From the NCBI GenBank assembly GCA_947304405.1, contig CAMZBB010000003.1, positions 836-64,835 of the forward strand: 64,000 nucleotides of DNA, written 5' to 3'. The first letter of the stretch is position 1, and each line of letters begins with the position of its first letter. Under the pieces are notes generated by a model that had not been told where the DNA came from, did no database searches, and was given only the letters and a program-made list of their open reading frames with translations. A program made the position numbers and the translations under genes. This document shows, piece after piece, positions 3,943 to 60,931 of this stretch. The DNA is from an uncultured Clostridia bacterium (lineage in GTDB: Bacteria; Bacillota; Clostridia; Saccharofermentanales; Saccharofermentanaceae).

Positions 3943-4002
3943 GAGATTACCGCCTTACGTTTTTTCGCATGTTATTGTTTCACATTTGGCAGGAAAATTA
4001 AA

Positions 4003-4298
4003 GGTGGTGTTGCTAAAGTGACGATGCCAAGGCCAAGTTGCTCATTTGTAGGAGTGTACATACGAAAACCCGATTATTTATGCTTTCGTATGTACGTTTG
4101 GACTGTTTTTTCGTAATTCCAACAGATATGTACATACGAAAACGCATTATTCTTCAAAATCGTATGTACTCAACCGGATTTTATGATGATTTTTGACGAA
4201 AACATACATACGAAAACGGGTGTTTTTCTATTTTCGTATGTACAAGTGATAGTTTAAAGAGAATTGTCCCGCAAGTGAAAGGATTCACTGGCGGGACA
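4003..4298 (-). repeat. hairpin-array element A (terminal motif, 3 x 74-bp hairpin units, terminator hairpin); inverted copy of element B
   Basis: Terminal motif GGTGGTGTTGCTAAAGTGACGATGCC at 4003-4028. Arms GTACATACGAAAA/TTTTCGTATGTAC at 4056-4095, 4130-4169 and 4204-4243 (period 74 bp). TGTCCCGC...GCGGGACA at 4265-4298 acts as the minus-strand terminator of CDS 4321-5208. Confidence 0.9.
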
Positions 4299-4320
4299 GA
4301 TAATTTCAAACCGGTTATGC

Positions 4321-5208
4321 TTATTTCTTCATGACAGGGAGCCAGATGGCGCTGTGATAGTCCTTGTCTGTAGGCATTGCCTTGCAGTCGTACCATTCGG
4401 CGGTGGCATTGCCGGAAAGCTCATAATCGGGATTGCCGGGAAGCCACTCAGTGAAGATTTTAGTGTTTACGGCCTGGAGAGCTCCGGGGCAAGGTCCGTA
4501 GATGTCAAAGACTGCCCAGTCGCCGTCAGCGAACTCGTAGATCTCCATTCCCTCAGGGATCTCGCCGCCCATATACTTGCCGGCGATCATGTACTTGAAC
4601 TTGGTGCCGCCGATGTCATCGATGCAGATGCCGAACTCACCGATGTTGTTGTCTGCAATTGCCTTTTCAAGAACGTTAGCGGGTTCTTTGCCTGCCCAGA
4701 CATTATTGGCATACTTCTCGCTGATCTCAGTCCAGAACTTCGGGATCTCTGCATAAGAGGTTTCCGAGTCGAAGAACCTCTGAAAGCCTATTACCTTAAA
4801 GTTTTTCATTGGTGTGATCTTGTAATCCATGTTGTTTCCTCCTTGAACGGTTAAGTTGATCTTTATCGGAAGGAAAGGCTTGAACGGAGTACTGTTTCTG
4901 ACCTGTGAAGGCGTTACTCCGTGAAAACGCGAAAAGGCTTTGGTAAAACTCTCGGGTGTCTCATAGCAATAGCGGTAGGCGATGACGATCACCATATCTT
5001 CCGTGTTGACCAGATCGAGCGCCGCCTGGTACAGTCTTCTGTTGCGGATATACTCTCCGACGGTGTAACCCGTCATGAGCGAGAAGCCGCGCTGCAGAAA
5101 GATGGGAGAGATATAAACCTTGCCCGCGACATCCTGTACACTGATGTCTTCTTCAAGATTGTTCTCGATAAAGTCTATCGCTGCTCTGATTCCCGTGAGC
5201 CATTCCAT
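4321..5208 (-). CDS. AraC-family transcriptional regulator with C-terminal GyrI-like effector-binding domain
   Basis: N-terminal AraC HTH (ISVQDVAGKVYISPIFLQRGF...YIRNRRL). The C-terminal ~150 aa resemble GyrI/Rob-type small-molecule binding domains. GGAAGGAG RBS. Confidence 0.8.
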   Translation of the reverse strand: MEWLTGIRAAIDFIENNLEEDISVQDVAGKVYISPIFLQRGFSLMTGYTVGEYIRNRRLYQAALDLVNTEDMVIVIAYRYCYETPESFTKAFSRFHGVTPSQVRNSTPFKPFLPIKINLTVQGGNNMDYKITPMKNFKVIGFQRFFDSETSYAEIPKFWTEISEKYANNVWAGKEPANVLEKAIADNNIGEFGICIDDIGGTKFKYMIAGKYMGGEIPEGMEIYEFADGDWAVFDIYGPCPGALQAVNTKIFTEWLPGNPDYELSGNATAEWYDCKAMPTDKDYHSAIWLPVMKK

Positions 5209-17343: not shown

Positions 17344-17364
17344 TAGATCTGAAACTTAATGAGC

Positions 17365-17660
17365 TGTCCCGCTAGTAAATTTGTTTACTTGCGGGACAAT
17401 TCTTTTTAAACTATCGCATGTACATACGAAAATGGAAAAACAGTCGTTTTTGTATGTACATTTCCGTAAAAAAACATCTTAAATTCTAGTTGCGTACATG
17501 CGATTTTGAAGAATAATGCGTTTTCGTATGTACATATCTGTTGGAATTACGAAAAAACAGTCCAAACGTACATACGAAAGCATAAATAATCGGGTTTTCG
17601 TATGTACACTCCTACAAATGAGCAACTTGGCCTTGGCATCGTCACTTTTGTAACACTACC
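17365..17660 (+). repeat. hairpin-array element B (terminator hairpin, 3 x 74-bp hairpin units, terminal motif); inverted copy of element A
   Basis: TGTCCCGC...GCGGGACA at 17365-17398, followed by ATTCTTTTT. Hairpin units at 17420-17459, 17494-17533 and 17568-17608 (period 74 bp). Terminal motif GGCATCGTCACTTTTGTAACACTACC at 17635-17660. Confidence 0.9.
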
Positions 17661-19203
17661 TTTTTTCTGTCAGCTGTTCGTAGGTAATGCCGTACTTTTC
17701 GGCTATGTCCCTGGCATAAGAACTTGAATCAGGTTCTGCTCTTTTTAGAAGGAACGTGTTTTTCTCATCCTTACGTTCCATAACAAGACTCGTGATCTTG
17801 CCTTGGCCATCCCAATTGTTCATCTCCGGAATGGATTTAGCAAGATCATGCATGTGCGTGTTGAAGATGATATAAGCGCCTTTCTCTTTGAGCACGCGGA
17901 TCAGATCCTTCGAAAGATATAGTCCGTCTGAGGACGATGTTGTTGAGAACGTCTCATTAAACAGCATCAGAGTATCCTGATCTGCATTTTTCACAAGACT
18001 CCTGATCCTAACAGCTTCCTCGCCAAGCCTTCCGTAATTTATTGTAAGGTTCTCATCGATGGGGAAGTGAGTAAGGATGTTGCCAAACGGAAGTCCCCTG
18101 CATGATCCTGCGGTTACGAACATACCGAGAGAAGACATTACCGAGATCAGTCCCAGAGCCTGTTCCATTATGGTCTTTCCGCCGCGGTTCGGACCCGTAA
18201 GAATGAAGATTCTCTCGTCAGGCGTAAATGTGAAGTCGTTTTTGACGATGTTATCCTCACCTTTAAAAGCAAGCCTTATGTTATAGAAACTCTTCATTTC
18301 AAATTTTGAGTCACGAACTGCCGTTATCTCGGGAAAAGATATCTCGTAACCGCTTTTTTTGAGTTTGCGAGCCAGGCCTGCACTTCTTATATAGAATGTC
18401 AGTCCTTCATACATTTCAACAAGGAAACTGCTGTCGTAATTGAAGTATTTTGTTAGTGTTCTTTTGACCTCAAAGAAGTGGGCTTTGAGGTGCTTTTCCA
18501 TCTTTGGCGCTATTGCCGCAAGAAGCGGATCTTCATATCTGACACGTCTGCCGGGCGTTGACAGCTTGGTAGCTGCAGCAATGTCCATTATCGTGTATTT
18601 GGATCTGAGACCGTGAGGCACAAATTCAATGGCTGAAACTTTTTCTATGTCAAAATCAGGAGTGAAATTGACGCCGATCACTGCTGCTCTTACGTCTGAC
18701 AGGTCATCGTGCATCAGGCGGATGTCATCTTTTGCACGGCTGAACTTTTCATCTTTTAATATGATTTCGAGACAGGTTCTGAGAGAAATCAGTCCTTCAG
18801 ATGAAATGCTGTATTTTTGCAGTTCGTTGTAAAGGTTTTCGACTGCATCAACGTAGACTGTAAGTTCTCTTAATGTCTGTAGAAGAGTGTAGAGCGATGT
18901 ATCTTTCTCGTATGTGGCTTTACGTATTCCGCCGAAGAGTTTTAACGTCTTTATCTGATCCAGTATAGGTTTCAGGGAAGAACAAAGTGCTTCGTTTTCG
19001 ACAAAATCTTTCAATATGTCCTGTCTGAAGATCATATCATTAGGATCTTCAGGTATCGCTGTGACGATCTTTTTTATGAAGGCGCGCTCATCGGAATCTG
19101 TGCCCAAATGATTTATGACCTCGCAAAGCGCGATATCTTTTACGGTTTCTTCTGGCAGCTTGATAGACTTTTTAGAAGAGTCTTTCGTAAACAGAACATC
19201 CAT
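17656..19203 (-). CDS. MutS domain V-type ATPase (MutS-related protein, no Smr or mismatch-binding domain recognised)
   Basis: Walker A GPNRGGKT, Walker B region LMLFNETFSTTS, and THMHDLA. ATG at 19203 follows GGGAGGA (the track's TTG at 19236 is less likely). Confidence 0.7.
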   Translation of the reverse strand: MDVLFTKDSSKKSIKLPEETVKDIALCEVINHLGTDSDERAFIKKIVTAIPEDPNDMIFRQDILKDFVENEALCSSLKPILDQIKTLKLFGGIRKATYEKDTSLYTLLQTLRELTVYVDAVENLYNELQKYSISSEGLISLRTCLEIILKDEKFSRAKDDIRLMHDDLSDVRAAVIGVNFTPDFDIEKVSAIEFVPHGLRSKYTIMDIAAATKLSTPGRRVRYEDPLLAAIAPKMEKHLKAHFFEVKRTLTKYFNYDSSFLVEMYEGLTFYIRSAGLARKLKKSGYEISFPEITAVRDSKFEMKSFYNIRLAFKGEDNIVKNDFTFTPDERIFILTGPNRGGKTIMEQALGLISVMSSLGMFVTAGSCRGLPFGNILTHFPIDENLTINYGRLGEEAVRIRSLVKNADQDTLMLFNETFSTTSSSDGLYLSKDLIRVLKEKGAYIIFNTHMHDLAKSIPEMNNWDGQGKITSLVMERKDEKNTFLLKRAEPDSSSYARDIAEKYGITYEQLTEKR

Positions 19204-24909: not shown

Positions 24910-24931
24910 AGCGTATCTTTGTAAAAACATT

Positions 24932-25227
24932 AGGGGCTGTCTCATTATATATTGAGACAGCCCCTATCGTTTTACACCCAATTTTGCAATGACCTATAAG
25001 AAATTGATTTTTCATTTCTTATAGGTACGATTTGCTTCAAAAGTGTGTTTTCAGACGCTTGTGTACCTATAAGAATTCAATTTTCGATTTCTTATAGGTA
25101 CTTTTTTATTTGGAAACGGCAAAAAAACCAAAAATGTACCTATAAGAAATTGATTTTTCATTTCTTATAGGTCAGGCATACTAAATAAGAACTGTCCCAA
25201 AAGCAAGATCATTCGCTTTTGAGACAG
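24932..25227. repeat. hairpin-array element C (terminator, 3 x 73-bp hairpin units, opposite-strand terminator)
   Basis: AGGGGCTGTCTCA...TGAGACAGCCCCT at 24932-24965. Units with arms ACCTATAAGAAAT/ATTTCTTATAGGT at 24992-25026, 25063-25101 and 25136-25172. CTGTCCCAAAAGC...GCTTTTGAGACAG at 25192-25227 serves pheA on the minus strand. Confidence 0.88.
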
Positions 25228-25262: not shown

Positions 25263-26393
25263 TCAGATGTAAGTCCCCAGATATGTGAAATCAGAAGGCT
25301 CAGAGTCCAGCTGGCATAAAAGCTTCACAACCTCGTCGGAATAGACTGATGCTTCGAAATCCAAGTAGAACATGAATTCGAAGTCAGAACCTGCGATAGG
25401 GCGGGATTCGATCTTGGTGAGATTGAGTTCAAGTGAAGAGAATTTCGCGAGAGTGTCCGCAAGAGCGCCGGGGCGATGTCCGAGAGAGAGCATTATCGAT
25501 GTCTTGGAAGCACCGGGATAGATACGGAGATCTTTTGTTATGCAGATGAAACGCGTGTAATTGTGATCGGTATTCTGGATCTTTACCGGGATTGAATCAA
25601 GGCCATAGAGCTGACGGCAGTCGGCAGATGATATTGCAGCGATGTCATTTCTTTCGGAGTCAGCGACCATGCGGGCTGCCACTGCCGTGTTCTGCACGAT
25701 GTTGATCTTGATGTCGGAGTGCTCTTTGAGGAACTGGCTGCATTGTCCGATCGCCTGGTTATGTGAATAGATCTCCTTTATGTCTTTGAGATCGGTACCA
25801 GGTTTTACGAGCAGCTGGTGATTGATCTTAAGCTTATAGTCACGCGCAATGTAGAATTTGTGGTCTGCCATAAGGTCATAGACCTGTGTGACCGAACCAT
25901 AGGAACTGTTCTCGATGGGGAGCATTCCGAATTCGCAGAGGCCGCTCTCAACTGCCTGGAAGACACCGTCGAATGTCTTGAAATACATGATGTTTGCATT
26001 GGAGAACAGTTTGTCGGTCGCTATTTGTGAATATGCGCCCTCGATGCCCTGACAGGCGATCATGCCGGAAGAAGGGAAGAGCTTTGGAGTATCGGCTATG
26101 GCCTTTGCAATCTTGTCTGCCATTTCTGTATTTGTTCCGTAATCGGAGTTCTTATATGAATGGCTCATGTTGAAAAGTGCCTGGAACAGCATGCGCTCAT
26201 ATCCGCTGATATCCTTGTAATCTTTTTCAAGTCCGTTCATGAATCCGCGTTCATAGCGCCTGCATTTCAGTGCTATCTCCGAACTTGATATGCCCTCATC
26301 TGCACGGCGGCTTGCATCAAGGCGCTCTTCTACGAGTCTGGCGATCTCACGGTCGATCTCTTCGATCCTTAAACTTGATTCCTTCTGTGTCAT
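25263..26393 (-). CDS. pheA: bifunctional chorismate mutase / prephenate dehydratase
   Basis: N-terminal chorismate mutase helix (LRIEEIDREIARLVEERL), a PDT domain and a C-terminal ACT domain. ATG at 26393 lies 7 nt after AAAGGAG (the track's TTG at 26414 lies in the attenuator T-run). Confidence 0.88.
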   Translation of the reverse strand: MTQKESSLRIEEIDREIARLVEERLDASRRADEGISSSEIALKCRRYERGFMNGLEKDYKDISGYERMLFQALFNMSHSYKNSDYGTNTEMADKIAKAIADTPKLFPSSGMIACQGIEGAYSQIATDKLFSNANIMYFKTFDGVFQAVESGLCEFGMLPIENSSYGSVTQVYDLMADHKFYIARDYKLKINHQLLVKPGTDLKDIKEIYSHNQAIGQCSQFLKEHSDIKINIVQNTAVAARMVADSERNDIAAISSADCRQLYGLDSIPVKIQNTDHNYTRFICITKDLRIYPGASKTSIMLSLGHRPGALADTLAKFSSLELNLTKIESRPIAGSDFEFMFYLDFEASVYSDEVVKLLCQLDSEPSDFTYLGTYI

Positions 26394-26412
26394 TGCTGTT
26401 CTCCTTTGCTTC

Positions 26413-26444
26413 AAACAAAAACCCCGCAGTTTTTCACTGCGGGG
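26413..26444 (-). terminator. intrinsic terminator of the pheA leader (attenuator)
   Basis: Minus strand reads CCCCGCAG-TGAAAAA-CTGCGGGG followed by TTTTTGTTT, immediately upstream of the pheA RBS. Confidence 0.8.
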
Positions 26445-36586: not shown

Positions 36587-38542
36587 ATGTTCTGTATGAA
36601 ATGTGGTCAAAAACTCGCCGATAACGCGACGTTTTGCGGAAATTGCGGAACGCCTGTAACTGACGCGGCTCCGGCAGCTGTACCGGCTCCCGCAGAAGCA
36701 GCACCTGCCCCTGCAGCGCCCGCTGAAGTTGTTCCTGCGGTACCTGCTGCTCCGGTTGAACCGGTTCCCGCAGTTGAAGTTCCTGCTGAGGTTGCACCTG
36801 TAGCAGCCGTTCCTGCAGTTGAAGTTCCTGCTCCTGCAGTACCTGTGGCGGAAACTGTTCCTGCGCCTGCCGTACCGGTTGCTGCCGTACCCGGAGCTGC
36901 TCCTGCTCCTGCACCTGCTCCTGCGGCAAAGGGCGGAAAGAAGAAATGGCTTCTTCCTGTCATCATCGGCGGTTCTTCGCTTCTTTTGGTCATTATCGGC
37001 ATAGTTGTTTTCTTTATTCTCTGGAACAACCGCATTACCAAGATCGACCTTAATGAGTTCGCAAAATTCGAATACAGCGGCTACGACACCGTCGGCAAGG
37101 CCGTATTCGAATATGATTACGACAAGCTCATAGAGAAGTACAAGAAAGACATCAGATATACCAAGGAAGGCAAGATCATCTATGGTGATGACTACGATGC
37201 TGACGAGGCTTTCGAGAAGATACTCAAGAGCAGCGCCAGGAGCGGACGTACAGTCGCTGACGGCCTGAAGAACGGTGATACTGTCGATTATGAGTGGAGT
37301 AATTCACTCGTTTCGAAGCTTACGCAGTATTTTAAGGTCGATATCACCGAACTGAAGTTTACCGATACCGTTAAGGGCCTTGATGAGGCTAAGATCGTTG
37401 ATATCTTTGAGGGATTGCAGATTGAATATAAGGGCGTTGCTCCTTATGCGTACATTTACTCGATCAAGTCAAACAATCAGTATAATATCCGTTTCCGTGC
37501 CGATAAGTTAGAGCAGTTAAGCAATGGCGACACCATTACCATTACTACCAGCCGCGGTGATGATCTCACCAGATATCTGCTCGAGAACTTCGGCGTTCTT
37601 CCTAAAGCAGTATCCACAACGATCACTGTTTCAGGCCTCGGAACCTATATAATGAATCCTGAAGAGATCTCGTCAGACTTCATGGCTAAGCTTCAGGCTC
37701 AGGCTGATGCTACTAATAACGCATATCTTGCAAAGGATATCACGAATAATGATGAGACTCTGGTAAGCACGACATGCGTAGGTTATTACTTCCTCAAGAA
37801 TAAGACGTCTTCGAACACTTCCACGAACAACCAGATGATCTTCGTTTATAAGAACGTGGTGCACAATACCCACACTTATAACAAAAAGACGTATTCCAAG
37901 GACAATATGTTCCTGTCGTTCTGCTTCATCAATAACCTTACTGTTCTTCCTGACGGTTCAAGCAGCGTTGATCTCAGTTCGTTTAAGATGTATCAGGGCA
38001 AGAGCATCAAGTTCTCAAGCACGACCGGTTACCGCTCATGGTATTATTCCGGTTTCGAGGATATCGATTCCCTCAAGAATCAGGCTGTCACAAGATATAT
38101 CGACAGATATGATTATTTCGAGAAGATCGATATGGACAAGATTAATGCAGGCGGCGGTACGGCTGAGCCTACTGCACCTTCCGAATCTGATGCGGCTGAG
38201 CCGTCTGAAGGTTCAGCGAAGACCATTGAAGAGGCTATCAAGCCTGAAGAGCTTCAGAAGATGATCGATAAGCTCAAGGAAAGTAGTGTTTTTAAGGACA
38301 ACTACGTTGATGTCAAGATCGAGATCAGTGGAAACAACGTTAAATACCAATATTACTACAACAAAGACTTTGACACAGAGCAGATCGAGAAAATAAAGAC
38401 TCAGCTCGAGAACAGCTCCTTGAAGAGCCAGATTTCGACTCTCAAGAACACATTCAAGTCGTCTTACGGTGTCGCAGCTGAAACGATCACATTTGAGTAT
38501 TACACAAAGAGCGGCACGCTCATTGCATCCATCTCAGGGTAA
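36587..38542 (+). CDS. zinc-ribbon domain membrane protein with Pro/Ala-rich linker
   Basis: N-terminal CxxC...CxxC (MFCMKCGQKLADNATFCGNCG), about 90 aa of P/A/V repeats, one TM segment and a large extracytoplasmic domain. Confidence 0.7.
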   Translation: MFCMKCGQKLADNATFCGNCGTPVTDAAPAAVPAPAEAAPAPAAPAEVVPAVPAAPVEPVPAVEVPAEVAPVAAVPAVEVPAPAVPVAETVPAPAVPVAAVPGAAPAPAPAPAAKGGKKKWLLPVIIGGSSLLLVIIGIVVFFILWNNRITKIDLNEFAKFEYSGYDTVGKAVFEYDYDKLIEKYKKDIRYTKEGKIIYGDDYDADEAFEKILKSSARSGRTVADGLKNGDTVDYEWSNSLVSKLTQYFKVDITELKFTDTVKGLDEAKIVDIFEGLQIEYKGVAPYAYIYSIKSNNQYNIRFRADKLEQLSNGDTITITTSRGDDLTRYLLENFGVLPKAVSTTITVSGLGTYIMNPEEISSDFMAKLQAQADATNNAYLAKDITNNDETLVSTTCVGYYFLKNKTSSNTSTNNQMIFVYKNVVHNTHTYNKKTYSKDNMFLSFCFINNLTVLPDGSSSVDLSSFKMYQGKSIKFSSTTGYRSWYYSGFEDIDSLKNQAVTRYIDRYDYFEKIDMDKINAGGGTAEPTAPSESDAAEPSEGSAKTIEEAIKPEELQKMIDKLKESSVFKDNYVDVKIEISGNNVKYQYYYNKDFDTEQIEKIKTQLENSSLKSQISTLKNTFKSSYGVAAETITFEYYTKSGTLIASISG

Positions 38543-52668: not shown

Positions 52669-53922
52669 ATGAGCGGAAGTAATGTTTTAAAATTCTTGCG
52701 TAAATACATGATGATCATCGCAACGGTGGTGGTAGTCTTCGTTTTCTACTTCATTACCGGCGGTAAGAATCTGTATCCGAACAGTATCGATGCCCTGATA
52801 TCACAGAATGCATATGTGTTCATCCTTGGAACCGGTATGCTCCTTTGTATCTTAACAGGCGGTAACATCGATCTTTCAGTCGGTTCGGTCGTTTGCCTCG
52901 CAGGCGGTGTCGGAGCCATCCTTATGAGAATGATGAAGGGCATGCCTGAAGTTGCATGGCCCATAGCCGTTATCGCAATGCTCGCAATGGGTCTTTTGGT
53001 CGGCCTCTGGCACGGCTTCTGGATCGCATATGTCAAGGTTCCTCCGTTCATTGCTACACTCGTCGGAATGCTTGCATTCAGAGGCGTCGCAAACATCATC
53101 ATGAAAGGTGAAGCTGTTGAGGTAGATAACAGATCCTTCCTTAACATCTTCGGCGGCGGAAGTACCTGCTATGTTCCTGATTTCCTCAGATTCCTGTCAC
53201 CCAGCAGTTCTCTCAACGTGACCTGCTTTGTTTTGGGAATCGCAATTGCAGCCGGTTATGCAGTATTCACTTTTGTGAACCGTACAAGGCTTATCAAGAA
53301 GGGTTACAAAGTAGATTCTCTGGTAGCAGTCATCGTTAAGACTATCCTCATCGTTGCCGTTGTAGTCTGGTTCAGCTATAAGCTTGCAGGTTACAGAGGA
53401 ATTCCTACGGCTCTTATCTGGATCGCTCTTGTACTCGGTGTATTTGCTTACATTACAACCAAGACGACGTTGGGCCGCAACCTCTACGCTGTCGGCGGTA
53501 ACGAGAAGGCTACAAGGCTTTCCGGTATCGATACCAGAAAAGTCATGTTTTCCGCATATACGCTCATGGGTGTTCTCTCCGGTTTTGCAAGTATCGTAAA
53601 CATCGCAAGACTCCAGGGTTCAACACCTACATATGGCGTCGGTTATGAGATGGACGCTATCGCTGCATGCTTCATCGGCGGCGCTTCCGCTTACGGCGGA
53701 ACAGGTTCGATCGGCGGCGTTATCATCGGTGCTGCCCTGATGGGTATCATCAACCAGGGCATGTCTCTTGCAAGTACGCCCGTCAACTATCAGAAGGTCG
53801 TTAAAGGTATCGTTCTTATCGTCGCTGTCCTCTTTGACGTAATCATGCAGATGAAGAGAAAGGGCGGAAAGAAGAAGGCAACAAGTGTTGCAGGTGCAGA
53901 GAAGGGAGGTGCTAAAGCATGA
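52669..53922 (+). CDS. sugar ABC transporter permease (GguB/XylH-like)
   Basis: Polytopic, with the GGNIDLSVGS motif of the BPD_transp_2 family. ATG at 52669 follows GAGGGG. Confidence 0.82.
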   Translation: MSGSNVLKFLRKYMMIIATVVVVFVFYFITGGKNLYPNSIDALISQNAYVFILGTGMLLCILTGGNIDLSVGSVVCLAGGVGAILMRMMKGMPEVAWPIAVIAMLAMGLLVGLWHGFWIAYVKVPPFIATLVGMLAFRGVANIIMKGEAVEVDNRSFLNIFGGGSTCYVPDFLRFLSPSSSLNVTCFVLGIAIAAGYAVFTFVNRTRLIKKGYKVDSLVAVIVKTILIVAVVVWFSYKLAGYRGIPTALIWIALVLGVFAYITTKTTLGRNLYAVGGNEKATRLSGIDTRKVMFSAYTLMGVLSGFASIVNIARLQGSTPTYGVGYEMDAIAACFIGGASAYGGTGSIGGVIIGAALMGIINQGMSLASTPVNYQKVVKGIVLIVAVLFDVIMQMKRKGGKKKATSVAGAEKGGAKA

Positions 53923-55121
53923 ACGGTTTCAGCATGAAAAATGTTATGAAAAAGAACGTAATGACAATAGCACTTTTCGCTGTCTATGTATTGTTCGTAA
54001 TACTGGCAGCCGCGATCAAGGGCACAAACATGCTCGATCCGTCTGTCGTTACCTCTCTTATTGAACAGAACGCTTACGTATTTATCCTGGGTGCCGGCAT
54101 GCTCATGTGTATGCTCACCGGCGGTAACATCGACCTTTCCGTAGGTTCGTTCGTCTGCTTCGCAGGTGCCGTCATCGGTCTGTTCTCGGTCGAGAACAAG
54201 ATCATCCAGAATACGACCAGCACTCCTGTTACTCTTTTGATCATTGTCGGAGTCGGCCTCGCTTACGGCGCGCTCTTAGGATTCCTTATCGCTTACGTAA
54301 GGATACCTCCGTGGATCGCTACGCTCGCAGGTTACCTCGCATTCCGCGGACTCGGTACACAGATTCTGACAACTGCATCTACGACAAATGCTATTTCCAA
54401 TTTTCCTAAGTCTTTGCTGGCTATCTTCAGCGGCAAGCTTTTCGAGTCGGCTTGGGGCGTGCTTAACGTACCTTGCCTCATCCTGGGCCTTGTAGGTTCG
54501 GCTGCGGTTATCTTCATCAACTTCAAATCCCGTGCAACCAAGGTTAAGAAGGGATATCAGGCTGATCCTCTGTGGTTCGTTATCGTAAAGAGCTGCCTCA
54601 TCGTTGCAGTCATAATGTTCCTTACCGTTGAGTTCGCTCTTGACGGCGGTATCCCGGTAGTAGTTATCTGGATTCTGGCAGTCCTCATCATCTACGGCAT
54701 CATCACCGAGAAGACTACGATCGGACGCCACTTCATGACAGTCGGCGGTAACGCAGAAGCTTCAAGGCTTTCAGGTATCAACAACAAGCGCATCATGTTC
54801 TGTGCATACCTCAACATGGCGATCCTCACAGTTATCGCTTCGTTGATCGTAACTGCAAGAACCGGCGCAGCTAACGCTTTCGCAGGTCAGGAATTCGAGC
54901 TCGATGCTATCGCAGCTTGTATCGTCGGCGGCGTATCCGCATACGGCGGTGCCGGTACTATCGTAGGAATGGTAGTCGGTGCTACGCTCATCGGTGTCAT
55001 CAACCAGGGCATGTCCCTCGTCGGCGTTGACCAGGACTGGATCAAGATCGTTAAAGGCTTGGTCCTCCTCGGAGCAGTTGTTTTCGACATCATGTCGAAG
55101 AAAGGTAACAAGAAACAGTAA
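53919..55121 (+). CDS. sugar ABC transporter permease (second paralogous subunit)
   Basis: Same GGNIDLSVGS family. ATGA overlap with the upstream gene. GAAGGGAGG RBS. Confidence 0.82.
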   Translation: MNGFSMKNVMKKNVMTIALFAVYVLFVILAAAIKGTNMLDPSVVTSLIEQNAYVFILGAGMLMCMLTGGNIDLSVGSFVCFAGAVIGLFSVENKIIQNTTSTPVTLLIIVGVGLAYGALLGFLIAYVRIPPWIATLAGYLAFRGLGTQILTTASTTNAISNFPKSLLAIFSGKLFESAWGVLNVPCLILGLVGSAAVIFINFKSRATKVKKGYQADPLWFVIVKSCLIVAVIMFLTVEFALDGGIPVVVIWILAVLIIYGIITEKTTIGRHFMTVGGNAEASRLSGINNKRIMFCAYLNMAILTVIASLIVTARTGAANAFAGQEFELDAIAACIVGGVSAYGGAGTIVGMVVGATLIGVINQGMSLVGVDQDWIKIVKGLVLLGAVVFDIMSKKGNKKQ

Positions 55122-59392: not shown

Positions 59393-59439
59393 CAGAATGC
59401 AACAGTCCTTTTGCTTTTGAACTAATCCGGCATGCGTTG

Positions 59440-59689
59440 ACTTACGAAAAAGGCCTTTTTGCTGTTTTCGTAAGTGCGTTTCTCAACATTTTTCGGCTTA
59501 ACAGGAAAAAAGCACTTACGAAATCGAGATATTTTCCTATTTCGTAAGTGCAGTTCCTTAGAAATTGAGCAAATTTCATGAAAACGCACTTACGAAAATG
59601 AGTTTTTTCCGGATTTAGTAAGTCGTCAGCCTTTTCAGGACTTTATGGAAGCCTCACAACGAAGCAGCATCGTCACTTTGCAACACCAC
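59440..59689 (+). repeat. hairpin-array element D (3 x 74-bp hairpin units, terminal motif)
   Basis: Arms (GC)ACTTACGAAAA/TTTTCGTAAGT(GC) at 59440-59475, 59512-59551 and 59586-59623 (period 74 bp). Terminal motif GCATCGTCACTTTGCAACACCAC at 59667-59689. Confidence 0.88.
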
Positions 59690-59694
59690 TTTTC

Positions 59695-60825
59695 TTACGC
59701 GTTATTGAATAATCCCATCAACTGGCTCTGCGCGGTTGTCACTGCATAGCCTTGTTCTTGAAGTGACGTTTGAACATATTTATCGCCGTCTTTGAAGCCG
59801 ACATATACGCTGCCGCCCATGATGGCTGCAGCTGACTTATCTTTGAAGTCCGGGTCATCAAGCCTGTTCTTTCTGATGATCTCTCTGGCAGGTTCGATGA
59901 CATCAACTGAGATCAGGCGGCGTTTTCCGTTGCAGTCGTAAAGAAGCTGAGTGTCAGAGTACTCATAGACAGTGGCATAGGTGGTGACGGGCGGATTTGT
60001 CGATTGATAAGTTGAAACGCTGAAAAGGACGACCGGCTCGAATTCTTTGCCGCAAACAGTACACTTGCCCTCCTGATTCTCTGCTCCGCAGGAAGGACAT
60101 TTCCAACCGAGCTTTATTTCCTGTTTAGCTGGTTCTTTTGGGGATTCCAGGCCAAAAGCCGGCACGGAAGCGGAAAATGCTGGCACGCCGATGTTGATCG
60201 CTGCTACTGGTTTTCCGCAGTTCGGACAGAACTTTACACCTTTGCATTTATATCCGCATTCGCAGGTTATCTCTTCTTCAATGGCTTTGCCGCAGTTGGG
60301 ACAGAACTTGAGAGCGAGCCCTGTATAACCGCACTCGCACGTGAAGGTCTTTTCTTCCTTGCGCGGGAGGCCGCAGTTCGGGCAGAACTTGCTCGTGAAT
60401 GATTGTCCGCACTCACATTTATATGTTGCAGGAGTCGAATCGGTAGTAAATCCGATGCCGTCACGCTTAAGCGCAATTCTTTGAACCATGCCGTTGCTAA
60501 GGTCGGTCATATCCATGTTGATCGTCTCAGAACCATACCAAATGCTGTTTACCTGATAGAAGACTTTGTCGCCTTTGATCAGTTTTGCGTCGGGAACGTT
60601 GATCCTCAGTTCTTCTCCGGGATTTGGCTGATAGTTGTTTACTGCCATGCCCATCATCAGATTAATGCCCTCGTGCACGAAATAGTTTTTCGACATATGA
60701 GCTTCGCCATATTTGATCTCAATATTCGCAGTCGTACCAAGCTTTACCTCGCATGAACCGTCGGCGTTTAACCATGTGCCTGCGAGTTTTTTATAGTACT
60801 GATACTGAGGATTCTGAACCTGCAT
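59695..60825 (-). CDS. multi-zinc-ribbon protein, function unknown
   Basis: Three tandem CECG-x(8-9)-FCPNCG units plus CPSCG...CTVCG. ATG at 60825 lies 7 nt after GGAGGT (the track start at 60840 contains that RBS). Confidence 0.65.
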   Translation of the reverse strand: MQVQNPQYQYYKKLAGTWLNADGSCEVKLGTTANIEIKYGEAHMSKNYFVHEGINLMMGMAVNNYQPNPGEELRINVPDAKLIKGDKVFYQVNSIWYGSETINMDMTDLSNGMVQRIALKRDGIGFTTDSTPATYKCECGQSFTSKFCPNCGLPRKEEKTFTCECGYTGLALKFCPNCGKAIEEEITCECGYKCKGVKFCPNCGKPVAAINIGVPAFSASVPAFGLESPKEPAKQEIKLGWKCPSCGAENQEGKCTVCGKEFEPVVLFSVSTYQSTNPPVTTYATVYEYSDTQLLYDCNGKRRLISVDVIEPAREIIRKNRLDDPDFKDKSAAAIMGGSVYVGFKDGDKYVQTSLQEQGYAVTTAQSQLMGLFNNA

Positions 60826-60931
60826 GATCTTAACCTCCATAGATTTCTGTTCTGATTGTACCGCAATTAAATACAGTAACCAAAGTTGATATTGATATAA
60901 TAAGGTCTAACAATGGAAGGAGTGGTTACTT

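What the first reader, a model, noticed from the sequence alone, without database searches (positions are those of the whole stretch)
4003..4298. Family of intergenic 3 x 74-bp hairpin arrays, four copies in this window
Four intergenic elements share one architecture (4003-4298, 17365-17660, 24932-25227, 59440-59689). Each has three tandem units with a 74-bp period (73 bp in the third element). Each unit carries a 10-13-bp inverted repeat ending in an A/T run, around a 9-18-nt loop. Within an element all six arms are nearly identical, although loops and inter-unit spacers have drifted apart. Between elements the arm sequence differs: GTACATACGAAAA, GCACTTACGAAAA and GTACCTATAAGAAA. The partner arm always carries the compensating change. 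All four sit at gene 3' ends, three of them between convergent genes. I see no coding capacity, cas genes or transposase. The placement resembles REP/BIME elements, while the compensated arm changes resemble a structured RNA. Because 74 bp is about 7 helical turns, a phased DNA-binding array cannot be excluded. I do not recognise this as a described family.
Basis: partly seen in the sequence, partly recalled or inferred. Interest (0 to 1): 0.8.

Follow-up and report, generated by a model that had tools for sequence, protein, structure and literature searches.

The report
Interspersed hairpin-array repeats replacing terminators
The four elements are copies of an undescribed family of small non-coding interspersed repeats (tandem 74-bp hairpin units between end modules) that occupy the places where gene terminators normally sit in rumen Clostridia and, unexpectedly, also in Fibrobacter; this is a new family of a familiar kind of bacterial repeat, not a new RNA gene or a CRISPR-like system.

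Summary
All four elements have three hairpin units at a 74/73-bp step, and nothing else in the window looks like them.

The elements belong to a large dispersed family.
- Arrays of 2 to at least 9 units occur in Saccharofermentans, Mageeibacillus and related Clostridia.
- The E3 arm type also occurs on Fibrobacter contigs, a different phylum.
- There is no match in Rfam, plasmid or phage collections, or the searchable literature.

Close relatives show turnover.
- The E2 and E4 sites are empty and hold a plain terminator.
- The E1 site holds an E4-type copy.

Across 133 distinct hairpins the arms covary: 92% of cells are paired against 82% in shuffles. Within one genome, variants are one-sided.

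Arrays are enriched between convergent genes. Flanking genes are ordinary, and no transposase, TIR or TSD was found.

Best reading: a non-autonomous, modular BOX/BIME-like repeat that replaces intrinsic terminators and probably substitutes for them. The mobilising enzyme is unknown. An RNA-only function and a phased DNA-binding array remain possible but less supported.

The parts
4000..4305 (.). E1, whole repeat copy (A module, three hairpin units, C hairpin). It is the inverted partner of E2.
   Evidence: inverted pair I1: 306 nt, 91% complementary. Sequence read.
4003..4055 (+). E1 'A' end module, GGTGGTGTTGCTAAAGTGACGATGCC...
   Evidence: 2 matches against 0 expected by chance. The module is also present, inverted, at the other end of E4. 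It resembles CACCATCGTCATTTG in the right module of the OH_SDB_170 elements.
4056..4095 (.). E1 hairpin unit 1, arms GTACATACGAAA / TTTCGTATGTAC.
   Evidence: DNA fold -9.5 kcal/mol, z = -5.2.
4130..4169 (.). E1 hairpin unit 2.
   Evidence: z = -4.4.
4204..4243 (.). E1 hairpin unit 3.
   Evidence: z = -4.6.
4264..4299 (-). E1 'C' module: a terminator-like hairpin, CTGTCCCGCCAGTG..CACTTGCGGGACA followed by a T-rich tail, placed directly downstream of the AraC/GyrI gene (4321-5208, minus strand).
   Evidence: The simple terminator scan misses it because the stem has one internal mismatch.
17358..17663 (.). E2, whole repeat copy in the inverse orientation to E1. C hairpin at 17364-17400; units at 17420-17459, 17494-17533 and 17568-17607; A module at 17608-17660.
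   Evidence: The orthologous site in an 84%-identical relative is empty.
24931..24966 (.). Bidirectional terminator-like hairpin on the left side of E3, GGGGCTGTCTC..GAGACAGCCCC.
24990..25174 (.). E3 array: three hairpin units (24990-25030, 25063-25103, 25136-25176) at a 73-bp step, arms GTACCTATAAGAA / TTCTTATAGGTAC.
   Evidence: family D8; z from -7.6 to -8.6. The arm type forms a large family in metagenomes.
25192..25227 (-). E3 'C'-like terminator hairpin downstream of the prephenate dehydratase gene (25263-26414, minus strand).
   Evidence: Similar to the C module of E1/E2.
59420..59685 (.). E4, whole repeat copy. Left module GCAACAGTCCTTTTGCTTTTGAACTAATCCGGCATGCGT; units at 59438-59477, 59512-59551 and 59586-59625; right part ending in the inverted A module GCATCGTCACTTTGCAACACCAC (59663-59685).
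   Evidence: Boundaries come from the empty site in a 95%-identical relative and from the E4-type copy in L095/L096.

Best explanation
The four elements are copies of a non-autonomous, modular interspersed repeat, comparable to pneumococcal BOX elements and enterobacterial BIMEs.

**Anatomy.**
- Each copy has a terminator-like end module and a tandem array of 40-nt hairpin units with a 34-nt spacer.
- The step is 73-76 bp in most cases.
- This genome's copies have three units; other genomes have 2 to at least 9.
- A second end module closes the element.

**Shown.**
- Copies are spread through intergenic DNA.
- They take the place of the intrinsic terminator stem-loop between genes.
- They are gained, lost or swapped between close relatives.
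- They exchange sequence by gene conversion.
- Their internal part can be inverted.
- The number of units varies.
- The complementarity of the two arms is kept in evolution by compensating changes.

**Inferred.**
- The hairpin, in single-stranded DNA or in RNA, is the feature that matters. It is probably the site recognised by a trans-acting enzyme that copies the element. The closest analogy is an IS200/IS605-type or RAYT-like enzyme, which leaves no target duplication, but none was found.
- Once in place, the element stands in for the terminator it replaced. One end carries a canonical terminator hairpin, and several units are followed by T runs.
- Arm 'dialects' would mark subfamilies.
For: **Multi-copy family.**
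- The genome scan returned 71 loci, 67 of them in five Clostridia MAGs.
- 199 hairpin units were counted in the sampled loci of one MAG alone.
- The metagenome scan returned 42 loci, including false positives.

**Positional homology between copies at different loci and in different genomes.** E4 matches the Saccharofermentans RUI139 copies, including the degenerate first and last arms.

**Presence or absence at orthologous sites.**
- E4 site: the 95%-identical relative has only 35 bp there, a plain terminator AAAGCCGGGCATTGCCCGGCTTTT.
- E2 site: the 84%-identical relative has 31 bp there, with the terminator GGGTGAC..GTCACCC.
- E1 site: the same relative carries an E4-type copy instead of an E1-type copy.
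- L116 carries an array downstream of a gene where the window has none.

**Other signs of a repeat that moves or recombines.**
- Contigs L095 and L096 end inside the element.
- E1 and E2 are a mosaic: 148 nt are identical, and the remaining stretch is about 82% identical.
- The internal orientation differs between copies.
- One unit (L101/L131) and some end modules carry nested insertions.
- In MAG OH_SDB_170 conserved end modules surround arrays of variable unit number.

**Arm covariation**.

| Measure | Observed | Shuffled |
|---|---|---|
| Cells paired | 92.0% | 81.8% |
| Cells changed on both sides | 233 | 103 |

No shuffle out of 500 reached either observed value.

**Context.**
- Arrays are enriched between convergent genes: 23 of 53, against a 17% background, p = 6.7e-6.
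- The 210 non-redundant flanking proteins are housekeeping genes with no recurrent partner family.
- E3 is flanked by terminator hairpins.
- BOX, RUP and SPRITE show the same placement bias and modularity (PMC3049150).
Against: - No terminal inverted repeats and no target-site duplication are seen at the two junction pairs that could be read.
- No transposase or RAYT was found:
  - none in the window;
  - none in about 570 kb (71 loci) of array-bearing loci by tblastn, using an IS200 sequence recalled from memory;
  - none among the flanking proteins.
- Transposition has not been shown. Recombination-driven spread, or loss in the relatives, would give the same presence/absence pattern.
- The terminator role is inferred from position and from T runs only. 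The units themselves have large loops and AT-rich stems and do not pass a simple terminator scan.
- The arm sequence is conserved far beyond what pairing alone requires, and the step length is conserved. Both could instead reflect a DNA-binding protein.
Confidence: 0.6

Rival explanations
1. The array is mainly a cis-acting RNA element of 3' untranslated regions. It would be a series of hairpins that terminates or insulates convergent transcription, or that protects the upstream mRNA from 3' exonucleases, as REP elements do. On this reading its spread is secondary.
For: - The stems are kept by compensating changes.
- Arrays sit at gene 3' ends and between convergent genes.
- They replace terminators in relatives.
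- Canonical terminator hairpins form one or both ends of the element.
- Several spacers start with T runs and end with A runs.
- In four or five Fibrobacter loci the array starts just after the stop codon of a co-oriented gene.
- There is a slight excess of G-U over A-C mismatches in the element's forward orientation, 14 against 7.
Against: - Orientation relative to flanking genes is about even in OH_SDB_170, though the ORF calls were crude.
- Internal arrays occur in both orientations.
- Loops are not conserved between genera.
- The units fail a simple terminator scan.
- The arm sequence is conserved across genera and phyla well beyond what a structure alone requires.
- The G-U excess is not significant.
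Confidence: 0.2
2. The array is a phased set of double-stranded DNA binding sites (palindromes on one face of the helix) for a sequence-specific protein, for example a nucleoid-organising or roadblock protein, or for the synaptic complex of a recombinase.
For: - The 12-nt arm is 95-100% conserved over 199 units in one genome and nearly identical across genera.
- The step is 73-76 bp in 214 of 249 cases, about 7 helical turns.
- The other spacing classes (62-64, 86 and 95-96 bp) differ by about one helical turn.
- Compensating changes are also what a symmetric dimer site would show.
Against: - The spacing classes come from only about two master element types, so there are few independent events.
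- Half-site separation varies. Between the 13-nt arms used in the census the gap is 13-15 nt in most units. The two arms lie about 2.6-2.8 turns apart, so they are not on the same face.
- Several arm dialects coexist in one genome.
- No DNA-binding gene is linked to the arrays.
- The element is mobile and replaceable, which suggests the host does not need it at fixed places.
Confidence: 0.12
3. E1 and E2 are the ends of a 13.7-kb composite transposon or an invertible segment, and the hairpin arrays are multiple transposase or recombinase binding sites at its ends, as in Mu or Tn7.
For: - A 306-bp inverted repeat pair has its A modules outermost and three repeated sites per end.
- A 148-nt perfectly identical tract could support homologous inversion.
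Against: - The 13 kb between them holds only ordinary metabolic and regulatory genes, with no transposase or recombinase.
- The 84%-identical relative has the same genes in the same order and orientation, with the E2 site empty and a different subfamily at the E1 site.
- E3, E4 and hundreds of other copies are solitary.
Confidence: 0.04
4. The arrays are degenerate or orphan CRISPR arrays.
For: - The period of about 74 bp is in the CRISPR range, and the repeated parts are palindromic.
- The E3 arm resembles part of a CRISPR repeat found by the same pattern search..GTACCTATGAGGAATTGAAAC.
Against: - There are no cas genes.
- The 'spacers' are conserved between copies at different loci and are repeated within arrays.
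- The conserved parts are two inverted arms around a variable loop, not one direct repeat.
Confidence: 0.01

Closest known systems
BOX elements of Streptococcus pneumoniae and S. suis (boxA, boxB x n, boxC), PMC3049150
   Same: - Both are non-coding interspersed repeats of Firmicutes with a modular build: two end modules around a variable number of tandem internal modules.
- Both are predicted to fold into strong stem-loops and are over-represented between convergent genes.
- In both, copies insert into one another.
- Neither has a proven transposase.
   Different: - There is no sequence relation, and nothing in Rfam matched.
- The internal unit here is a 40-nt hairpin plus a 34-nt spacer (74-75 bp), not the 45-nt boxB.
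- The window copies lack end modules that pair with each other.
- These copies replace terminator stem-loops.
- The family crosses phyla.
REP / BIME / REPIN elements with RAYT transposases (PMC3333891, PMC3116915, PMC3733652)
   Same: - Both are high-copy extragenic palindromes of about 40 nt, clustered in arrays with conserved linkers and placed at gene 3' ends.
- Both show family-specific stem sequences with compensated differences.
- Neither leaves a target duplication.
- Proposed roles for both are in termination or mRNA stability.
   Different: - There is no GTAG or CGTC tag; the arms start with GTAC, GCAC or ATAC.
- Loops are large (12-17 nt).
- Units are direct tandem copies rather than alternating Y/Z orientations.
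- No RAYT gene was found in the sequence available.
- The hosts are Clostridia and Fibrobacter, not Proteobacteria.
[quoted passage not shown]
   Same: Both are interspersed repeats that look like, and sit in the place of, intrinsic terminators close to the 3' ends of genes.
   Different: SPRITE is a single 18-bp duplex followed by a U-rich tract. The elements here carry a terminator-like end module plus a tandem hairpin array.
Classical MITEs (for example Correia elements, RUP)
   Same: Both are small, AT-rich, non-autonomous and structured, and both show presence/absence polymorphism.
   Different: No terminal inverted repeats and no target-site duplication are seen at the junctions read here.

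Membership tests
REP/BIME (REPIN) | Extragenic imperfect palindrome of 20-40 nt, present in many copies | tested here: met
   Hairpins of 39-41 nt account for 350 of 357 units. 199 units were counted in the sampled loci of one MAG. All are intergenic.
REP/BIME (REPIN) | Conserved GTAG (or CGTC) tetranucleotide at one end of the palindrome (PMC3733652) | tested here: not met
   Arms start with GTAC, GCAC, ATAC or TTAC. Neither a GTAG nor a CGTC tag is present.
REP/BIME (REPIN) | A cognate RAYT (IS200/IS605-like Y1 transposase) gene flanked by the repeats in the same genome | tested here: inconclusive
   None was found in the window, in about 570 kb of loci (71 loci) by tblastn with an IS200 query recalled from memory, or among 210 flanking proteins. 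Whole genomes could not be searched.
REP/BIME (REPIN) | Clusters of palindromic units in alternating orientation, joined by conserved linker motifs | tested here: inconclusive
   Conserved linkers and arrays are present. However, the units are head-to-tail. In OH_SDB_170 two spacer types alternate, giving a 150-bp higher-order repeat.
BOX-type modular repeat | Two end modules around a variable number of tandem internal modules | tested here: met
   The window copies have A and C modules around three units. OH_SDB_170 has left and right modules around 2 to at least 9 units.
BOX-type modular repeat | Sequence homology to boxA, boxB and boxC | not tested
   No BOX models were available. Rfam gave no match. 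By eye there is no similarity.
MITE | Terminal inverted repeats and a target-site duplication | tested here: not met
   The E2 and E4 junctions, read against the empty sites, show replacement of the terminator stem-loop with no duplication. In OH_SDB_170 a direct repeat of the terminator's left arm flanks some copies and varies with the locus (L045). That is suggestive but unresolved.
CRISPR array | Identical direct repeats separated by unique spacers, usually with cas genes nearby | tested here: not met
   Spacers are conserved between loci. No cas genes are present.
Any Rfam family | A match at the family's gathering score | tested here: not met
   There were no hits on the window or on 23 loci apart from tRNA, 5S rRNA and an FMN riboswitch elsewhere in those loci. 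E1 gave only chance-level hits (E-value of 1 or more) at the lax threshold.
Intrinsic terminator | G+C-rich stem with a short loop, followed by a T run | tested here: inconclusive
   The end hairpins of E3 qualify. The C hairpin of E1/E2 qualifies by eye only. The repeated units have 12-17-nt loops and AT-rich stems and do not qualify.

The most novel reading that the evidence does not exclude
**The reading.** The family would be a distinct class of terminator-homing element. Hairpin arms of about 12 nt, occurring in lineage 'dialects', would be read by an unknown hairpin-specific enzyme or protein. The element would excise the terminator stem-loop and install itself without a target duplication. 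It would also have moved between phyla in the rumen, from Bacillota (Saccharofermentans and relatives) to Fibrobacterota or the reverse.

**A variant reading.** The steps of about one helical turn in unit spacing would mean the array works as phased double-stranded DNA sites.

**What the evidence allows.**
- It shows the cross-phylum sharing of the same arm, the same 40-nt hairpin and the same 74-bp step.
- It shows precise terminator replacement at two sites.
- It does not exclude either reading.
Probability: 0.2. Interest if true: 0.7.

Novelty: new variant of a known kind. Interest (0 to 1): 0.45.

Why it matters
**Practical consequences.**
- The arrays break metagenome assemblies; contigs end inside them.
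- Their period of about 74 bp overlaps the CRISPR range.
- In arrays with a 75-bp period, a mechanical ORF listing finds open reading frames running through the array.
- A model of the family would improve annotation of rumen Clostridia and Fibrobacter genomes.

**Biological interest.**
- The family gives clean examples of an interspersed repeat replacing intrinsic terminators.
- It shows concerted evolution by gene conversion between dispersed copies.
- It shows hairpin-preserving covariation in a non-coding mobile sequence.
- The same arm and geometry occur in two phyla that share a habitat. This raises a testable question: what moves such small non-coding elements between distant bacteria, and which enzyme reads the hairpins?

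Tried and rejected
- **Three left arms at a fixed period as a collection pattern.** It only found unrelated tandem repeats in viral contigs, so I added the hairpin constraint.
- **First hairpin finder.** It missed units with mismatches near the loop and was replaced.
- **Exact look-ups of two window proteins.** Both failed because of start-codon choice. The contig was later identified through the esterase.
- **Fe-ADH relatives.** They were not syntenic and told nothing about the E1 and E2 sites.
- **Rfam.** Nothing at the gathering or the lax threshold.
- **tRNA-likeness of the 74-nt unit.** None.
- **IS200-type transposase.** tblastn found nothing below E = 0.1; the query was recalled from memory, so this is a lead and not a test.
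- **Recurrent neighbouring protein family.** None by BLAST clustering or by Pfam on 210 flanking proteins.
- **CsrB-like sponge idea.** GGA occurs in the OH_SDB_170 loop consensus, but I dropped the idea because loops are not conserved in other genomes.
- **Similarity of the E4 left flank to the lost terminator.** I rejected this once the same flank was found in the L095 copy, which shows it belongs to the element.
- **Phage or plasmid vector.** There are no arrays in IMG/VR and no blastn match in the plasmid or phage collections.
- **Literature.** Searches by arm sequence and by topic found nothing describing the family. One possibly relevant preprint could not be opened.
Full report
**1. The observation**

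- The repeat finder gives start-to-start spacings of 74, 74 for E1; 74, 74 for E4; and 73, 73 for E3.
- The degenerate arm GYACNTAYRARAA, with up to one mismatch, occurs 25 times in the window against 3.35 expected. Nineteen of these lie in the four elements.
- A scan of the whole window for stems of 10-14 bp with loops of 6-23 nt finds clustered hairpins only there.
- Eight of nine units tested fold as single hairpins, with z-scores from -4.4 to -8.6. E4 unit 3 is degenerate.
- The flanking genes are as described. E1 lies downstream of an AraC/GyrI gene and upstream of mnmA. E2, E3 and E4 lie between convergent genes. There is no cas gene or transposase.

- E1 and E2 are one 306-nt inverted repeat pair, 91% complementary, around 13 kb of ordinary metabolic genes.
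- The elements include end modules. An 'A' module, GTGTTGC(N)AAAGTGACGATGC, is present in E1, E2 and E4. A terminator-like 'C' hairpin is present in E1, E2 and E3.
- The 29 differences between E1 and E2 avoid a 148-nt stretch entirely (4015-4162). The remaining stretch is only about 82% identical. By my own rough estimate (about 1e-7; no script was run), such a gap is very unlikely under an even spread of differences. The two copies have recently exchanged sequence.

**2. It is a large dispersed family**

*Genome scan.* A scan of one genome per species, using a pattern of one hairpin plus the next arm, returned 71 loci.
- Sixty-seven loci come from five Clostridia MAGs: Bacillota bacterium OH_SDB_170, an uncultured Mageeibacillus, Clostridiaceae AS06rmzACSIP_271, Saccharofermentans RUI139 and Ruminococcaceae RUG12081.
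- Saccharofermentans and Mageeibacillus are both Oscillospiraceae in the NCBI taxonomy.
- Arrays there have 2 to 9 or more units at a 74-76-bp step.
- The Saccharofermentans copies share the three-unit layout of E4 position by position. This includes the degenerate first arm (TGAC..), the degenerate last arm (TTTAGTAAGTC) and the GAAAAC that precedes unit 3. That GAAAAC is also present in E1.

*OH_SDB_170.* In this MAG the arrays sit inside a longer conserved repeat.
- The left module is about 110 nt.
- The right module is about 230 nt and ends in a terminator hairpin.
- The right module contains CACCATCGTCATTTG, which resembles the window's A module.
- Some copies carry a nested insertion of about 190 bp.
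- The same MAG holds arrays of the same build with other arms, TATGGGCGAAA and TTGTGGACGAAA.

*Metagenome scan.* A scan with a degenerate GTAC-type pattern returned 42 loci.
- Part of them are false positives (CRISPR arrays and other tandem repeats).
- The E3 arm GTACCTATAA[AG]A forms a large family.
- The E1 arm also recurs.

*Hosts.* Exact matches of flanking proteins to named database entries place the arrays as follows.
- The three-unit arrays lie on Saccharofermentans, Oscillospiraceae or Clostridiales contigs.
- A four-unit type, with spacings of 62/63, 74 and 95 bp, lies on Fibrobacter contigs.
- The same arm, the same 40-nt hairpin and the same 74-bp step therefore occur in two phyla that share the rumen.

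*Source of the window.* The window comes from a 66.6-kb contig of a Saccharofermentans-like organism.

*No described match.*
- Rfam gives nothing.
- The plasmid and phage collections give nothing.
- IMG/VR holds no arrays.
- Literature searches by sequence and by topic found no description.

**3. Turnover at orthologous sites**

- *E4 site.* In a relative whose amine oxidase is 95% identical, the oxidase gene and the convergent zinc-ribbon gene are only 35 bp apart. That gap holds a plain terminator, AAAGCCGGGCATTGCCCGGCTTTT. The window has 302 bp with E4 there.
- *E2 site.* A relative at 84% identity is syntenic with window positions 4.3-24.3 kb. Its E2 site holds only a 31-bp spacer with the terminator GGGTGAC..GTCACCC. 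At both sites the element takes the place of the stem-loop, between the A run and the T run. I see no target duplication.
- *E1 site.* In the same relative the E1 site is occupied by an E4-type copy with arms GCACTTACGAA. It is visibly very similar to the window's E4, including a left module that forms a complete terminator hairpin. Both contigs end inside it.
- *A fourth case.* Another relative has an array downstream of a gene where the window has none.
- *Other relatives.* About 110 kb of other related sequence holds no array.
- *Internal inversion.* The loops and spacers of E1(+) match E4, L024, L061 and L096, while L044 matches E1(-). Relative to the A module, the E1/E2 array is inverted compared with E4. 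Recombination between the inverted arms would produce this.

**4. Covariation**

I collected hairpins whose two arms each fit the degenerate consensus. Complementarity at the variable positions was not imposed. This gave 357 units and 133 distinct arm pairs.

| Measure | Observed | Shuffled |
|---|---|---|
| Cells paired | 92.0% | 81.8% |
| Cells changed on both sides | 233 | 103 |
| Covariation score | 0.369 | 0.189 |

- No shuffle out of 500 reached any of the observed values. Slid controls stayed at or below 0.145.
- The sequences are related, so the shuffle counts are not probabilities.
- The covarying positions are 2, 5, 8, 9 and 11.
- The arm types combine them in several ways: GTAC-A-TA-CG, GTAC-A-TA-TA, GTAC-C-TA-TA, GCAC-A-TA-CG, GCAC-T-TA-CG and ATAC-A-TA-CG. 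This implies several independent events.
- Mixed arrays exist in which each unit is self-complementary but differs from its neighbours (L099, L126, L133). Compensation therefore acts on each hairpin, not on the array as a whole.
- Within one genome (OH_SDB_170, 199 units) the arm is 95-100% conserved at every position. Over the 190 units that could be oriented, 98.3% of cells are Watson-Crick pairs and the rare variants are almost all one-sided. In the element's forward orientation there are 14 G-U against 7 A-C mismatches, which is not significant.
- Uncompensated arms also occur in L024.

**5. Context**

- Arrays lie between convergent genes in 23 of 53 cases. Convergent pairs make up 17% of adjacent gene pairs in the same loci (p = 6.7e-6). 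These figures rest on crude ORF calls.
- The 210 non-redundant flanking proteins are housekeeping enzymes and transporters, with no recurrent partner family.
- E3 is bracketed by two canonical terminator hairpins.
- The repeated units themselves do not pass a simple terminator scan. Several are nevertheless followed by T runs in one or the other direction.
- The step between units is 73-76 bp in 214 of 249 cases. The other classes are 62-64, 86 and 95-96 bp, which differ by about one helical turn. They come from only about two master element types.

**6. Interpretation**

The best-supported reading is a non-autonomous, modular interspersed repeat of the BOX/BIME kind. It occupies terminator positions, is gained, lost and swapped between close relatives, and is homogenised by gene conversion.
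- Shown: the complementarity of the arms is under selection.
- Inferred: the hairpin is the recognised feature. It would be read either by a still unknown enzyme that copies the element, or as RNA or single-stranded DNA structure that substitutes for the terminator.
- Against: the lack of TIRs, of a TSD and of any transposase keeps the mechanism open. REP/RAYT-type single-strand transposition, which leaves no duplication, is the closest analogy. However, the GTAG tag is absent and no RAYT was seen.

The rivals are, in order of support:
1. a mainly RNA-level role;
2. a phased DNA-binding array;
3. a composite or invertible 13-kb element, largely refuted by synteny;
4. a degenerate CRISPR array, refuted by spacer conservation between loci.

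**7. Novelty**

This is an undescribed family within a known kind of element. It has several unusual features.
- It replaces terminator stem-loops cleanly.
- Its arms occur in dialects that are compensated hairpin by hairpin.
- Its step length is conserved.
- It is present in both Bacillota and Fibrobacterota.

Interest is moderate as the evidence stands. It would be higher if a dedicated hairpin-reading enzyme or cross-phylum transfer were demonstrated.

Noticed in passing
L098 836-1110, L104 25-235, L109 7900-8175, L127 3596-3870 (also L100, L107, L111-L113, L117, L120, L138, L139): Four-unit arrays with arm GTACCTATAAAA and spacings of 62/63, 74 and 95 bp lie on Fibrobacter contigs. Flanking proteins match Fibrobacter sp. 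database entries exactly or at 90% identity or more. The family is therefore shared between Fibrobacterota and Bacillota of the rumen.
   Followed up: partly
window 4000-4305 and 17358-17663: The two inverted copies flank 13 kb of ordinary genes and share a 148-nt identical tract (4015-4162). This makes them a possible substrate for inversion of the segment. The one syntenic relative has the same orientation.
   Followed up: partly
all loci; summary: Spacing between successive hairpins falls into four classes: 62-64, 73-76, 86 and 95-96 bp. The classes are about one helical turn apart. There are few independent events, and the pattern is unexplained.
   Followed up: partly
L022 2890-3640, L034 4538-4915, L039 4801-4973, L064 4449-4568, L047 7189-7456, L057 3889-4083, L067 4055-4322: The same MAG (OH_SDB_170) and the Mageeibacillus MAG hold other tandem hairpin arrays with a period of about 75 bp but quite different arms: TATGGGCGAAA, TTGTGGACGAAA, AAACACAGCCT, AAAACTACCGCCTA and CAAACCTACTCA. 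The first two of these share the inner CGAAA..TTTCG.
   Followed up: no
L023, L045, L012 (right module of the OH_SDB_170 element; alignment): A nested insertion of about 190 bp with its own terminal inverted repeats (GAGTACCTTGTTAA..TTAACAAGGTACTC) sits inside the right end module in three copies.
   Followed up: no
L101 and L131 (unit 2 of an E1-type array): Within unit 2, a pair of inverted arms of another type (TTATCCGTG..CACGGATAA, about 40 nt apart) lies between the GTACATACGAAAA left arm and the next TTTCGTATGTAC right arm. The element is therefore a mosaic of two arm types.
   Followed up: no
L103, L114, L122, L123: True CRISPR arrays were picked up by the pattern. Their repeat, ..GTACCTATGAGGAATTGAAAC, shares GTACCTAT.AG.AATTGA with E3 unit 1. 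This is probably an effect of the search pattern.
   Followed up: no
L095 6690-6735: The plain terminator at the empty E2 site of the relative (GGGTGACTTCAATCGTCACCC) shares the 8-mer ATCGTCAC with the A module of E1, E2 and E4. Whether this is a footprint of a lost copy or chance is unresolved.
   Followed up: no
L044-L045 flanks in OH_SDB_170: The left arm of a terminator (GGGGCTGTCTC; ATGAGCTGTCTC in L045) is present as a direct repeat at both ends of the long element, and it varies with the locus. This could be a long target duplication created by insertion into a terminator loop.
   Followed up: partly
window 60211-60390: Direct repeats of 75-81 bp lie inside the gene for the zinc-ribbon protein (59695-60840, minus strand). 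They are coding repeats of the zinc-ribbon motif and are unrelated to the hairpin arrays.
   Followed up: no
window 52803-55018 and 36670-36924: Two paralogous ABC-type permease genes are 70-78% identical over about 100-nt stretches. Short imperfect repeats also occur in a coding region (36670-36924).
   Followed up: no
L140 3086-3117, L141 3685-3716, L142 2488-2519: Single 32-nt hairpins GTACCTATAA..TTATAGGTAC lie between genes of three viral contigs. Their geometry differs from the 40-nt units, so they are probably unrelated.
   Followed up: no
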